Part shown: positions 28,758 through 32,154 of the stretch, one piece after another
Layout: the number at the start of each line of letters is the position of its first letter
How positions within the stretch are numbered: the stretch's first letter is position 1
Source: the human T2T-CHM13v2.0 reference genome, Homo sapiens
Assembly: GCF_009914755.1 (NCBI RefSeq)
Contig: NC_060934.1
Strand: one strand, 5' to 3'
DNA: 64,000 nt
The notes under the pieces: model-generated
What the model was told of the DNA's origin: nothing
Seen by the model: only the letters and a program-made list of their open reading frames with translations
The model's database searches: none
Program-made: the position numbers and the translations under genes

Positions 28758-30866
28758 CTCCCGTCTCCCTCTCCCTCTCCCGTCTCCCTCTCCCGTCTCC
28801 CTCTCCCTCTCCCGTCTCCCTCTCCCTCTCCCTCTCCCGTCTCCCTCTCCCTCTCCCGTCTCCCTCTCCCTCTCCCGTCTCCCTCTCCCTCTCCCGTCTC
28901 CCTCTCCCTCTCCCTCTCCCTCTCCCTCTCCCGTCTCCCTCTCCCTCTCCTTTCCACGGTTTCCCTCTCATGCCGGGCCAAAGCTGGACTGTACTGCTGC
29001 CATCTCGGCTCTCTGCAGCCTCCCTGCCTGATTCTCCTGCCTCAGCCTGCCGAGTGCCTGCGATTGCAGGCGCGCGCCGCCACGCCTGACTGGTTTTCGT
29101 GTTTTTTTGGTGGGGACGGGGTTTCGCTGTGTTGGCCAGACTGGTCTCCAGCTCCTAGCCGCGAGTGTTCCGCCAGCCTCGGCCTCCCGAGGTGCCAGGA
29201 TTGCAGACGGAGTCTCATTCACTTAGTGCTCAATGGTGCCCAGGCTGGAGTGCAGTGGCATGATCTCGGCTCGCTATGGCCTCCACCTCCCAGCCGCCTG
29301 CCTTGGCCCCCCAAAGTGCGGAGATTGCAGCCCCTGCCCGGCCGCCACCCCGTCTGGGAAGTGAGGAGCGTCTCTGCCTGGCTGCCCATCGTCTGGGATG
29401 TGAGGAGCCCCTCTGCCTGGCTGCCCAGTCTGGAAAGTGAGGAGCGTCTCTGCCCGGCTGCCATCCCACCTGGGAAGTGAGGAGCGCCTCGTCCCGGCCA
29501 CCATCCCATCTAGGAAGTGAGGAGCATCTCTGCCCGGCAGCCCATCGTCTGAGATGTGGGGAGCGCCTCTGCCCCGCCGCCCCGTCTGGGATGTGAGGAG
29601 CGCCTCGGCCCGGCCGCGACCCCGTTTGGGAGGTGAGGAGTGTCTCTGCCCGGCCGCCCCGTCTGAGAAGTGAGGAGACCCTCCTCCTGGCAACCGCCCC
29701 GTCTGAGAAGTGAGGAGCCCCTCCGCCTGGCTGCCACCCCGTCTGGGAAGTGAGGAGCATCTCCGCCTGGCAGCCACCCCGTCCGGGAGGGAGGTGGGGC
29801 TCAGCCCCCCGCCCGGCCAACCGCCCTGTCCGGGAGGTGAGGGGCGCCTCTGCCCGGCCGCCCCTACTGGGAAGTGAGGAGTCCCTCTGCCCAGCCAGGA
29901 GCCCCTCTGCCCAGCCAGACGCCCTGTCCGGGAGGGAGGTGGGGGGGTCAGCCCCTCGCCCAGCCAGCCGCCCCGTCCGGGAGGGAGGTGGGGGGCTCAG
30001 CCCCCCGCCCGGCCAGCCGCCCCGTCCGGGAGGTGAGGGGCGCCTCTGCCCGGCCGCCCCTACTGGGAAGTGAGGAGCCCCTCTGCCCGGCCAGCCGCTC
30101 CGTCCGGGAGGGAGGTGGGGGGGGTCAGCGCCCCCTCCCGGCCAGCCGCCCCGTCCGGGAGGGAGGTGGGGGGGTCAGCCCCCCGCCCGGCCACCCGCCC
30201 CGTCTGGGAGGGAGATGGGGGGGTCAGCGCCCCGCCTGGCCAGCCACCCGGTCCGGGAGCTGAGGGGCGCCTCTGCCCGGCCGCCCCTACTGGGAAGTGA
30301 GGAGCCCCTCTGCCCGGCCACCACCCCGTCTGGGAGGTGTACCCAACAGCTCATTGAGAATGGGTCATGATGACGATGGCGGTTTTCTGGAATAGAAAAG
30401 GGGGCAAGGTGGGGAAAAGATTGAGAAATCAGATGGTTGCCGTGTCTGTGTAGAAAGAAGTAGACATGGGAGACTTTTCATTTTGTTCTGTACTAAGAAA
30501 AATTCTTCTGCCTTGGGATCTTGTTGATCTATGACCTTACCCCCAACCCTGTGCTCTCTGAAACATGTGCTGTGTCCACTCAGGGTTAAATGGATTAAGG
30601 GCGGTGCAAGATGTGCTTTGTTAAACAGATGCTTGAAGGCAGCAGGCTCCTTAAGAGTCATCACCACTCCCTAATCTCAAGTACCCAGGGACACAAACAC
30701 TCTGCCTAGGAAAACCAGAGACCTTTGTTCACTTGTTTGTCTGCTGACCTTCCCTCCACTAGTGTCCTATGACCCTGCCAAATCCCCCTCTGTGAGAAAC
30801 ACCCAAGAATGATCAATTAAAAAAAAAATAAAATTAAAAAGAAAACAACAACAACAACAAAAAAAA
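28758..30866 (+). mobile_element. Full-length SVA retrotransposon (SVA_D-like)
   Basis: (CCCTCT)n hexamer head ~28758-28950, antisense Alu-like region ~28951-29330, GC-rich VNTR ~29330-30335, SINE-R ending gagaaacacccaagaatgatcaat, A/AAC-rich tail 30819-30866. Confidence 0.97.
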
Positions 30867-30914
30867 GTCCTCCCATAAGGAAAGATGATCAATTCTTATG
30901 TATCGTTCTAGGGA

Positions 30915-30922
30915 TATAAATA
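30915..30922 (+). promoter_or_regulatory. Consensus TATA box upstream of the retrocopy ATG
   Basis: TATAAATA matches TATAWAWR and starts 44 nt before the ATG at 30959; function unproven. Confidence 0.3.
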
Positions 30923-30958
30923 TTCAGGAGGCTTTTCAGAATAAAAGTTAAATCATTT

Positions 30959-31198
30959 ATGTCGCACAAACAAATTTACTATTCGGACAAATACGATGAC
31001 AAGGAGTTTGAGTATCGACATGTCATGCTGCCCAAGGACATAGCCAAGCTGGTCCCTAAAACCCATCTGATGTCTGAATCTGAATGGAGGAATCTTGGCG
31101 TTCAGCAGAGTCAGGGATGGGTCCATTATATGATCCATGAACCAGAACCTCACATCTTGCTGTTCCGGCGCCCACTACCCAAGAAACCAAAGAAATGA
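30959..31198 (+). CDS. Intact ORF of CKS1B retrocopy, CDK regulatory subunit 1-like, 79 aa (E15K vs parent)
   Basis: [79 protein letters not shown]; no stop or frameshift. Translation not shown by sequence. Confidence 0.5.
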
Positions 31199-31704
31199 AG
31201 CTGGCAAGCTACTTTTCAGCCTCAAGCTTTACACAGCTGTCCTTACTTCCTAACATCTTTCTGATAACATTATTATGTTGCCTTCTTGTTTCTCACTTTG
31301 ATATTTAAAAGATGTTCAATACACTGTTTGAATGTGCTGGTAACTGCTTTGCTTCTTGAGTAGAGCCACCTCCACCATAGCCCAGCCAGATGAGTGCTCT
31401 GTGGACCCACAGCCTAAGCTGAGTGTGACCCCAGAAGCCACGATGTGCTCTGTATCCAGAACACACTTGGCAGATGGAGGAAGCATCTGAGTTTGAGACC
31501 ATGGCTGTTACAGGGATCATGTAAACTTGCTGTTTTTGTTTTTTCCTGCCGGGTGTTGTATGTATGGTGACTTGTGGATTTATGTTTCAGTGTACTGGAA
31601 ACTTTCCATTTTATTCAAGAAATCTGTTCATGTTAAAAGCCTTGATTAAAGAGGAAGTTTTTATAATCTAAAAAAAATAAAAATAAAAATAAAATAAAAT
31701 AAAA
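30959..31704 (+). pseudogene. CKS1BP2: Processed retrocopy of CKS1B (CDS + 3' UTR + poly(A)); likely CKS1BP2
   Basis: Intronless CKS1B CDS, ~470-nt 3' UTR, ATTAAA at 31645-31650, A-rich tail 31670-31704; 5' UTR absent. The CKS1B identity is firm; the pseudogene number is from recall. Confidence 0.88.
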
Positions 31705-32154
31705 CCCTGCTGCATGAGTCATATTACTCCAGGAAAAAAAAAAAAGAAGCAAATTTTGAAGGAAAATAAATCACACATTTTGTATCTAAAAAGAAGTCTA
31801 GGCGCTAGGTATAGACCTTAGGAAGCAGATGCATACAAACAAAGTAACAATTGCTTAAAGTTGTCTTTAAGCTCTTTTCAGAATCAAGATGAATGGAAAA
31901 ACTACACAACTGGTGACTCTGCAGTGAATCTCCCTCCGGCTGTGACTACACCTGTTTCCAGCAAAAAGGAGCCGGCGGGCTGCATAAAGCACCCTCATCG
32001 AATGACACTATAAAACTGTATTTCAGTGTGCTCAGAGACAAATTGGAACAACTGGTCCACAGGCTGGATCTAACTCGGTCCTTGTCTTTGTCTAATAGCT
32101 GAATACATGAACAGATTTTAATAACTGAACTGCTGTTTGGTTGCTCTATGTTAT

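What the first reader, a model, noticed from the sequence alone, without database searches (positions are those of the whole stretch)
28758..31745. SVA + CKS1B retrocopy + second poly(A): candidate SVA-mediated 3' transduction of a complete coding sequence
Seen: SVA, 92-bp unique spacer, CKS1B CDS/3' UTR/tail, 29 nt of unique sequence, then A12 (31734-31745) starting 30 nt after an AATAAA (31698-31703), all co-oriented. The sequence left of the SVA (aagatgtacaaacag) does not recur after the SVA tail, and the sequence left of the ATG (aaagttaaatcattt) does not recur after the CKS1B tail, so neither young element has its own TSD. The SVA terminus reads gatcaattaaa instead of gatcaataaa. Known: SVAs often read through and transduce 3' flanks, and duplicated the AMAC/SLC35G genes that way. 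Inference: the block may have moved or be transcribed as one unit. Caveats: I find no clean TSD for the whole block, and AATAAA hexamers at 30827 and 30940 could end read-through, so two independent insertions with target-site deletions remain possible.
Basis: partly seen in the sequence, partly recalled or inferred. Interest (0 to 1): 0.8.

Follow-up and report, generated by a model that had tools for sequence, protein, structure and literature searches.

The report
SVA that carries a CKS1B retrocopy
A young human SVA retrotransposon here has a copy of the CKS1B mRNA fused to its 3' end, and the two have been copied around the genome as a single unit; this case was published in 2025.

Summary
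A full-length SVA (28758-30866) is followed by a 92-nt spacer, then the intronless CKS1BP2 copy with an intact 79-aa ORF, its A-rich tail, 29 unique nt and A12. I found no target-site duplication (TSD).

The core inference is right. In T2T-CHM13 the spacer has four 100%-identical copies:
- chr13: no SVA, so the origin of the spacer.
- chr11: SVA + spacer + poly(A), inside a 14-nt TSD.
- chr10: this locus.
- chr5: SVA + spacer + CKS1B copy, inside a 19-nt TSD.

Only the chr10 and chr5 copies, 2 of 7 full-length CKS1B retrocopies, start exactly at the ATG and sit behind an SVA.

Two details fail. The 29-mer and A12 are single-copy chr10 flank, not part of the unit. The AATTAAA terminus is a common SVA variant.

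All of this is in print (PMC12593883, Mob DNA 2025): SVA_D-CKS1BP, a proposed template switch, chr10 as a fixed source element, human-specific.

What remains open is why the chr10 copy alone lacks a TSD. The paper says each copy has one, but the 13-mer its table lists for chr10 is the TSD of the chr2 offspring.

The parts
28432..28745 (+). Old Alu with its A-rich tail (28719-28745), 12 nt upstream of the SVA. It is flank, not part of the unit. It matters only as a possible A-rich target site.
   Evidence: 81-86% matches to Alus in the other loci.
28758..28950 (+). SVA 5' hexamer array, (CCCTCT)n with interspersed CCCGTCT.
   Evidence: period 6, 30.7 copies; period 19, 10.2 copies. Length differs between sister copies: 189 nt here, 58 nt on chr5, 82 nt on chr11.
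28951..29330 (+). SVA Alu-like region.
   Evidence: Aligns without gaps to the chr5 and chr11 sister SVAs over 400 nt. chr10 has 2 private differences, chr5 has 3, and 6 separate chr10+chr5 from chr11.
29330..30339 (+). SVA VNTR.
   Evidence: periods 37-49 and multiples, families D2-D5.
30340..30818 (+). SVA SINE-R, ending in gatcaATTAAA.
   Evidence: 98.96% identical to the chr5 copy over 479 nt. The terminus variant is shared by the chr5 and chr11 copies and by 308 places genome-wide.
30819..30866 (+). Internal A-rich tail of the SVA, inherited from the chr13 source element. It contains AATAAA at 30827 and ATTAAA at 30833.
   Evidence: Identical in the chr10 and chr5 copies, different on chr11; hexamers.
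30867..30958 (+). 92-nt 3' transduction from chr13. It ends 13 nt after AATAAA (30940-30945), at the poly(A) site that the chr11 copy used.
   Evidence: Four copies at 92/92 identity in T2T-CHM13. chr13 carries it in continuous unique DNA with no SVA, and chr11 has A13 directly after ...aaatcattt.
30959..31198 (+). CKS1B coding sequence, complete from the ATG: 79 aa, with E15K.
   Evidence: Versus the parent exons: a shared C>T at 30997 (synonymous) and a private G>A at 31001 (E15K), both at CpG.
31199..31669 (+). CKS1B 3'UTR with its own ATTAAA (31645-31650).
   Evidence: three chr1 exons joined, no introns. Three differences from the parent, all shared with the chr5 copy.
31670..31704 (+). 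Tail of the retrocopy and 3' end of the mobile unit: A8 T A5 T A5 T A4 T A4 T A4, holding four AATAAA.
   Evidence: The chr5 copy shares the first part of the pattern, then runs into its own TSD.
31705..31745 (+). 29 unique nt plus A12. This is chr10 flank, not part of the unit.
   Evidence: One place in T2T-CHM13 for the 29-mer at up to 2 mismatches and one for 31700-31830; absent from the chr5 copy.

Best explanation
Window 28758-31704 is one composite retrotransposon, the SVA_D-CKS1BP2 element described in PMC12593883.

Proposed history:
1. An SVA once sat on chr13, at a site that is empty in T2T-CHM13. It read through its own tail and was polyadenylated 92 nt downstream, which gave a lineage of SVA + 92-nt transduction (shown; the chr11 copy is a plain member).
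2. In one event a CKS1B mRNA copy, truncated exactly at the ATG, became joined head-to-tail to the 3' end of that 92-nt transduction with no poly(A) between them. The most likely route is that L1 ORF2p, while reverse-transcribing CKS1B mRNA, jumped to the 3' end of an SVA-transduction RNA (inferred; proposed in the paper).
3. The chimera has since behaved as an SVA with an 850-nt 3' extension. It is transcribed from the SVA, reads past the AATAAA hexamers at 30827 and 30940 (the latter has lost its native downstream sequence), ends in the CKS1B ATTAAA/tail region, and is inserted elsewhere by L1. The whole block recurring on chr5 inside a TSD shows this. The paper adds a polymorphic chr2 copy and names chr10 as its source.

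The 29-mer and A12 are local flank. The intact ORF says nothing about function at this age.
For: - Spacer at four places, 92/92 identical. chr13 has it in unique DNA with no SVA in 6 kb.
- chr11 has SVA + spacer + A13 inside the TSD AAAATCTCATCTCT.
- chr5 has SVA + identical internal tail + spacer + CKS1B from the ATG + tail inside the TSD AAGAATATCCTTGGGGATG.
- The chr10 and chr5 CKS1B parts differ at 1 of 712 nt and share 4 differences from the chr1 parent.
- Only these 2 of 7 full-length retrocopies start at the ATG and have an SVA within 1.5 kb. The other 5 carry 44-86 nt of 5'UTR and no SVA.
- The spacer-to-ATG joint has no poly(A). The parent's upstream bases (..gcgatc) do not match the spacer end, so at most the A of ATG is shared.
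- Paper passages and tables give the same structure, absence from chimpanzee, bonobo and gorilla, SVA_D, chr10 listed as a fixed source with 1 non-reference offspring, and the template-switch proposal.
Against: - The chr10 copy has no TSD, unlike chr5, chr11 and chr2, so its own integration was not a textbook L1 event. This leaves open whether chr10 is the founder.
- The template switch itself is inferred from the joint. Nested insertion of CKS1B mRNA at the TTT/AAAA boundary of an existing SVA-spacer copy would give the same joint.
- I could not examine ape genomes or the chr2 allele. Human specificity and the chr10 > chr2 > chr5 order rest on the paper.
- chr5 has 6 private differences and chr10 has 5 over 1,737 aligned columns, so neither is a very recent copy of the other as it stands today.
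Confidence: 0.88

Rival explanations
1. Nested insertion instead of template switching. An ordinary SVA + 92-nt + poly(A) copy, like the chr11 one, existed first. L1 endonuclease then nicked exactly at the spacer/poly(A) boundary (top strand ..CATTT/AAAA, a consensus TT/AAAA site). A 5'-truncated CKS1B cDNA was inserted there, and the composite then spread.
For: The chr11 copy shows that ...aaatcattt followed by A13 exists in this lineage and forms a consensus L1 site. A-tails are frequent L1 targets (general knowledge, recalled). The A-rich TSD of such an event would be invisible in the CKS1B tail.
Against: A normal 7-20-nt TSD would leave that many A's between the spacer and the ATG; at most one is there. 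The outer TSD of the first insertion should still flank the block at the founding locus, and chr10 has none.
Confidence: 0.25
2. chr10 is not the founder but one more offspring of a founder that is lost or not in T2T-CHM13. Its missing TSD is an accident of its own integration: a target-site deletion or a blunt joint.
For: No TSD at chr10. chr10 and chr5 each have private changes, 5 and 6. At least two other source alleles of this lineage are absent from T2T-CHM13: the chr13 source and probably one at chr10:76.16 Mb.
Against: The paper reports that the chr2 copy carries a short extra transduction traced to the CKS1BP2 locus, and lists chr10 as the source. The 4 substitutions shared by chr10 and chr5 relative to the parent fit a long residence at one source before the offspring arose.
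Confidence: 0.3
3. Two independent insertions at chr10, each with a target-site deletion: an SVA, and separately a CKS1B processed pseudogene 92 nt away.
For: Neither element has its own TSD.
Against: The same SVA, internal tail, 92-nt spacer and ATG-truncated CKS1B copy recur on chr5 inside one TSD. The spacer is chr13 sequence, not chr10 sequence.
Confidence: 0.02
4. Classical 3' transduction: an SVA inserted upstream of an older CKS1B pseudogene somewhere and read through into it.
For: This is how most SVA 3' transductions arise, and the chr11 copy and the spacer itself arose this way.
Against: The source's tail, TSD and local flank would lie between the SVA-spacer and the pseudogene. Here the spacer's poly(A) site abuts the ATG. 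None of the other 5 full-length CKS1B retrocopies has an SVA or this truncation point.
Confidence: 0.04

Closest known systems
SVA-CKS1BP (CKS1BP2 chr10, CKS1BP3 chr5, non-reference SVA_Chr2_087), PMC12593883, Mob DNA 2025;16:42
   Same: It is this very locus. The structure matches: SVA_D, chr13-derived transduction, CKS1B copy truncated in exon 1, no poly(A) at the joint, and mobilisation as a unit. I reproduced these points independently on T2T-CHM13.
   Different: - The paper states that TSDs enclose each copy. I find none at chr10. The 13-mer its Table S8 lists for chr10 is the chr2 offspring's TSD in Table S2, and it has no match at up to 2 mismatches within 8 kb of the element.
- 'Open reading frame' has 0 occurrences in the paper's main text.
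- I saw passages and two supplement parts, not the whole text or the figures.
SVA 3' transduction of AMAC1/SLC35G genes (Xing et al. 2006, recalled, not read here)
   Same: An SVA carries a complete intronless coding sequence at its 3' end and makes several copies of it.
   Different: There the gene lay downstream of the source SVA and was captured by read-through and splicing. Here the cargo is an mRNA copy joined at an RNA 3' end, without read-through.
Template-switch chimeric retrocopies (U6-L1, mRNA-L1 and similar; Buzdin and colleagues, Gilbert et al. 2005; recalled, not read here)
   Same: Two RNA-derived parts in the same orientation. The 3' part is 5'-truncated. The 5' part ends at its RNA 3' end. 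The joint is direct.
   Different: The 5' partner is a full-length, still active SVA, so the chimera stayed mobile and propagated. The presumed founder lacks the TSD that such chimeras normally show.

Membership tests
Full-length SVA retrotransposon | (CCCTCT)n array, Alu-like region, VNTR, SINE-R and A-rich tail, in that order | tested here: met
   Gap-free alignment of the Alu-like and SINE-R parts to two other SVAs.
Full-length SVA retrotransposon | Flanked by a TSD made by L1 | tested here: not met
   No TSD at chr10 for the SVA alone or for the block. The sister copies have 19-nt and 14-nt TSDs.
Full-length SVA retrotransposon | Subfamily D by diagnostic positions | not tested
   Taken from Table S8 of PMC12593883.
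SVA 3' transduction lineage | Unique sequence after the SVA tail that maps to another locus where it is ordinary flank | tested here: met
   92/92 match to chr13:97236896, in continuous unique DNA with no SVA.
SVA 3' transduction lineage | Transduced piece ends at a poly(A) site and carries a second poly(A) | tested here: inconclusive
   It ends 13 nt after AATAAA, and the chr11 copy has A13 there. On chr10 and chr5 no poly(A) follows; CKS1B does.
SVA 3' transduction lineage | TSD encloses SVA plus transduction | tested here: inconclusive
   Met on chr5 and chr11. Not met on chr10.
Processed pseudogene of CKS1B | Intronless copy of the spliced mRNA with a tail at the mRNA 3' end | tested here: met
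   The three chr1 exons are contiguous in the copy, which ends at the gene's 3' end followed by an A-rich tail.
Processed pseudogene of CKS1B | Own TSD directly flanking the retrocopy (independent insertion) | tested here: not met
   The TSD on chr5 encloses the SVA as well.
Template-switch chimeric retrocopy | 5' partner ends at its RNA 3' end, joined directly to a 5'-truncated 3' partner in the same orientation, with no TSD or tail between | tested here: met
Template-switch chimeric retrocopy | The switch happened during one reverse transcription, rather than by two nested insertions | not testable with these tools
   Needs the founding locus with its empty or intermediate alleles.

The most novel reading that the evidence does not exclude
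The lineage has spread a complete CKS1 coding sequence behind a germline-active SVA. The chr5 copy encodes a protein identical to CKS1B (only a synonymous change), the chr10 copy encodes E15K, and a third copy is polymorphic. These may be expressed as human-specific, copy-number-variable CKS1 paralogues, rather than being silent pseudogenes. Separately, the founder's missing TSD may record a non-canonical integration coupled to the template switch.
Probability: 0.07. Interest if true: 0.55.

Novelty: already known. Interest (0 to 1): 0.3.

Why it matters
It is a clean natural example of an SVA acting as a vehicle that multiplies a whole coding sequence. The cargo was acquired by joining two RNAs rather than by read-through. 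This bears on how retrocopies and exons get shuffled in recent human evolution. Because it was published in November 2025, the value here is confirmation on T2T-CHM13 plus one correction-sized point: the chr10 source copy has no TSD, so how and where the chimera first integrated is still open.

Tried and rejected
- TSD searches for all pairings of three left joints and three A-runs found nothing.
- Local alignments of the left flank or the spacer against the right flank, with shuffles, gave two leads. AGATG--TACAAACA (28744-28756) against 31827-31841 was reached by 113/300 shuffles. CTTTTCAGAATAAA (30932-30945) against 31874-31887 was reached by 7/300. Neither abuts an A-run.
- A joined 'empty site' aligned to the right flank was no better than chance, 52/300. 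I treat all of these as chance.
- A short-word BLAST of 31705-31826, 31746-31900 and the 12 nt left of the SVA against the whole window found only A-runs and 8-15-nt chance hits. There is no local duplication or inversion.
- The full 3' transduction sequence of SVA_Chr2_087 could not be read, because the supplement cell is cut at about 400 of 887 characters. I therefore could not see which chr10 bases it carries. From the coordinates in Table S4, its match to chr10 ends about 4 nt past the tail, near window 31708. This assumes equal tail lengths in GRCh38 and T2T and is an inference.
- My first join of the parent exons had one base too many. Alignment column 59 is that artefact, not a difference.
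- The Alu-like alignment failed for chr5 because an anchor was not found. It was redone.
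Full report
**What is there.** The window is T2T-CHM13 chr10:29698001-29762000, inside an SVIL intron. Reading 28300-32200 with Tandem Repeats Finder shows a complete SVA on the + strand:
- CCCTCT-type array 28758-28950
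- Alu-like region to about 29330
- VNTR to about 30340
- SINE-R to 30818, ending gatcaATTAAA
- degenerate A-rich tail 30819-30866

After the SVA come, in order:
- 92 nt of unique-looking sequence (30867-30958)
- an ATG-initiated 79-codon ORF (30959-31198)
- the CKS1B 3'UTR, to 31669
- a patterned tail (31670-31704)
- 29 unique nt (31705-31733)
- A12 (31734-31745)

The ORF is a CKS domain (Pfam PF01111, E=9e-40). It matches human CKS1 (PDB 1BUH) at 78 of 79 residues, the exception being E15K.

**No TSD at this locus.** I compared the sequence ending at each of three left joints (SVA 5' end, spacer start, ATG) with the sequence starting in or after each of three A-runs, allowing slack and mismatches. 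Nothing better than A-rich strings or 6-9-mers with 2-3 mismatches appeared. Local alignments of the flanks scored like shuffled controls: 100/300, 102/300 and 113/300 shuffles reached the observed score. One 13/14 match (7/300) lies 130 nt beyond the A12 and 13 nt inside the spacer, so it cannot be a TSD. A joined hypothetical empty site did no better, 52/300. A short-word search of the window found no local duplication.

**The spacer is not single-copy.** The whole T2T-CHM13 genome could be searched. The 92-mer occurs four times at 92/92 identity, and I fetched 6-9 kb around each other place.
- **chr13:97236896.** The 92-mer lies in continuous unique DNA (...ttttttttaaaac | 92-mer | tagctggga...). 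No SVA lies in the 6 kb examined. This is where the sequence comes from.
- **chr11:73864631 (minus).** An SVA with the same AATTAAA terminus is followed by the 92-mer and then directly by A13. The whole lies between two copies of AAAATCTCATCTCT. This is a classical 3' transduction, polyadenylated 13 nt after the AATAAA that sits at window 30940.
- **chr5:63332114 (minus).** This copy has an SVA, an internal tail identical to chr10's (including the (CAA)5 run), the 92-mer, CKS1B from the ATG and a tail. The whole lies between two copies of AAGAATATCCTTGGGGATG.

So the block SVA + spacer + CKS1B has been retrotransposed as a single unit at least once.

**What belongs to the unit.** Homology between chr10 and chr5 starts at the hexamer array. 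It ends inside the CKS1B tail: chr10 has A8 T A5 T A5 T A4 T A4 T A4, and chr5 has A12 T A5 T A3-4 running into its TSD. The 29-mer occurs once in the genome at up to 2 mismatches, and 31700-31830 occurs once. The 29-mer and the A12 are therefore chr10 flank, not a second poly(A) of the element.

**Relation to the parent gene and to other retrocopies.** CKS1BP2 (712 nt) matches the three exons of CKS1B on chr1 with no introns.
- Versus the parent, chr10 and chr5 share four differences (window 30997 C>T, 31371 A>T, 31564 G>A, 31575 C>T).
- chr10 has one private change (31001 G>A, which gives E15K). chr5 has none.
- Three of the five changes, including both in the coding part, lie at CpG.
- The chr5 ORF therefore encodes unchanged CKS1.
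- Of 7 full-length retrocopies, only chr10 and chr5:63.3 Mb begin at the ATG and have an SVA within 1.5 kb.
- The other five (chr8, chrX, chr14, chr11:83.1 Mb, chr5:144.97 Mb) carry 44-86 nt of 5'UTR and have no SVA.
- Over 1,737 aligned non-VNTR columns, chr10 has 5 private differences and chr5 has 6.
- With so few substitutions expected in 240 nt, an intact ORF says nothing about selection.

**The joint.** The spacer ends at exactly the base where the chr11 copy starts its poly(A). On chr10 and chr5 the next bases are ATGTCGCAC. The parent gene has ...gcgatc before the ATG. No 5'UTR is present, and at most the A of ATG could be a remnant of a tail or a 1-nt microhomology. There is no tail, TSD or foreign flank at the joint. 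This excludes simple read-through from an SVA into a neighbouring older pseudogene.

Two routes remain:
- **Template switch.** L1 ORF2p, copying CKS1B mRNA, jumps to the 3' end of an SVA-spacer RNA.
- **Nested insertion.** CKS1B mRNA inserts at the ...CATTT/AAAA boundary of an existing SVA-spacer-poly(A) copy. That boundary is a consensus L1 nick site, but the event would need a TSD of 0-1 nt.

I favour the template switch, at roughly 55:25. The rest goes to other or mixed routes.

**Polyadenylation.** The 30940 signal worked in its native chr13 context, as the chr11 copy shows. In the chimera its downstream sequence was replaced by CKS1B, and the unit was nevertheless copied whole to chr5, so both hexamers are bypassed at least sometimes. 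The 'gatcaattaaa' terminus is not a private defect. With its SINE-R context it occurs at 308 places in T2T-CHM13, against 919 for the AATAAA form. It contains ATTAAA and is shared by the chr5 and chr11 copies.

**Already in print.** A full-text search for CKS1BP2 gave 3 papers. One of them describes exactly this: PMC12593883 (Mob DNA 2025;16:42). I read passages and parts of supplementary file 1, not the whole paper or its figures. It reports:
- a non-reference SVA_D on chr2 with an 887-897-bp 3' transduction, whose first part maps to chr13 (the origin, present in chimpanzee) and chr11 (SVA_D inside 14-bp TSDs);
- CKS1BP2 (chr10) and CKS1BP3 (chr5) with SVA_D upstream and the same transduction;
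- absence of the three SVA-associated copies from chimpanzee, bonobo and gorilla;
- a proposed template switch from CKS1B mRNA to SVA RNA;
- the order chr10 > chr2 > chr5, offered as speculation;
- chr10:29695976-29697809 (GRCh38) listed as a fixed SVA_D source with one non-reference offspring.

Searches for 'SVA + CKS1B + transduction' (13 papers) and for 'CKS1BP3' (5 papers) turned up no other description, judged from the listed titles and abstracts.

**What is left over.** The paper says 'unique TSDs' enclose each SVA and its transduction. That holds on chr5 and chr11 in my hands, and its Table S2 gives a 13-nt TSD for chr2. For chr10 I find none. The 13-mer that Table S8 lists for the chr10 source is the same string that Table S2 gives for the chr2 offspring. 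In the 64-kb window it has 0 exact matches and 8 matches at 1-2 mismatches. The nearest are at 14274 and 40207, more than 8 kb from the element. At under 1% divergence a real TSD would still be perfect, so its absence is a property of the integration or of a later deletion.

Possible explanations:
- a target-site deletion or a blunt joint at a complicated founding event;
- an A-rich TSD hidden between the old Alu tail (28719-28745) and the CKS1B tail, with ...atgtacaaacag as filler at the 5' joint;
- a later deletion.

The ape empty site would decide between these. I had no ape genome.

**Verdict.** The phenomenon is already known. It is interesting as biology but not new, and the only unreported points are the missing chr10 TSD and the state of the ORFs.

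Noticed in passing
L006 (T2T chr11:73860700-73869700, minus strand copy), just 3' of the 92-mer; and L034 (chr10:76159833): The chr11 sister copy carries a second, 20-nt transduction (GAAATAAACTTACTTGAATT) between its A13 and its final tail. The only other exact copy in T2T-CHM13 is at chr10:76159833, where no SVA lies within 1.5 kb. This is probably the flank or TSD of an intermediate SVA-spacer source allele that this genome lacks.
   Followed up: partly
L007 (T2T chr13:97233900-97239900), around 97236896: The origin locus of the 92-nt spacer has no SVA in T2T-CHM13. The founding source element of the whole lineage is therefore absent from this haplotype, as the paper also infers for GRCh38.
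   Followed up: partly
L005 (T2T chr5:63328200-63337200), CKS1BP3: The chr5 copy's 79-codon ORF differs from the parent CKS1B coding sequence only by one synonymous C>T, so it encodes unchanged CKS1. Its hexamer array is 58 nt against 189 nt at chr10.
   Followed up: partly
PMC12593883, supplementary Table S8, chr10 row: The TSD listed for the chr10 source element equals the TSD of its chr2 offspring in Table S2 and is not found next to the chr10 element. This is probably a table slip.
   Followed up: yes
window 30884-30951: The spacer holds two upstream ATGs (30886 and 30900 by reading) that open short frames ending before the CKS1 ATG. Together with the 2.1-kb SVA leader, this makes translation of the ORF from an SVA-initiated transcript unlikely. 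This comes from reading the sequence only.
   Followed up: no
window 44952-45045: Annotated U6 snRNA pseudogene (RNU6-908P), another L1-mediated retrocopy in the same intron. Not examined.
   Followed up: no
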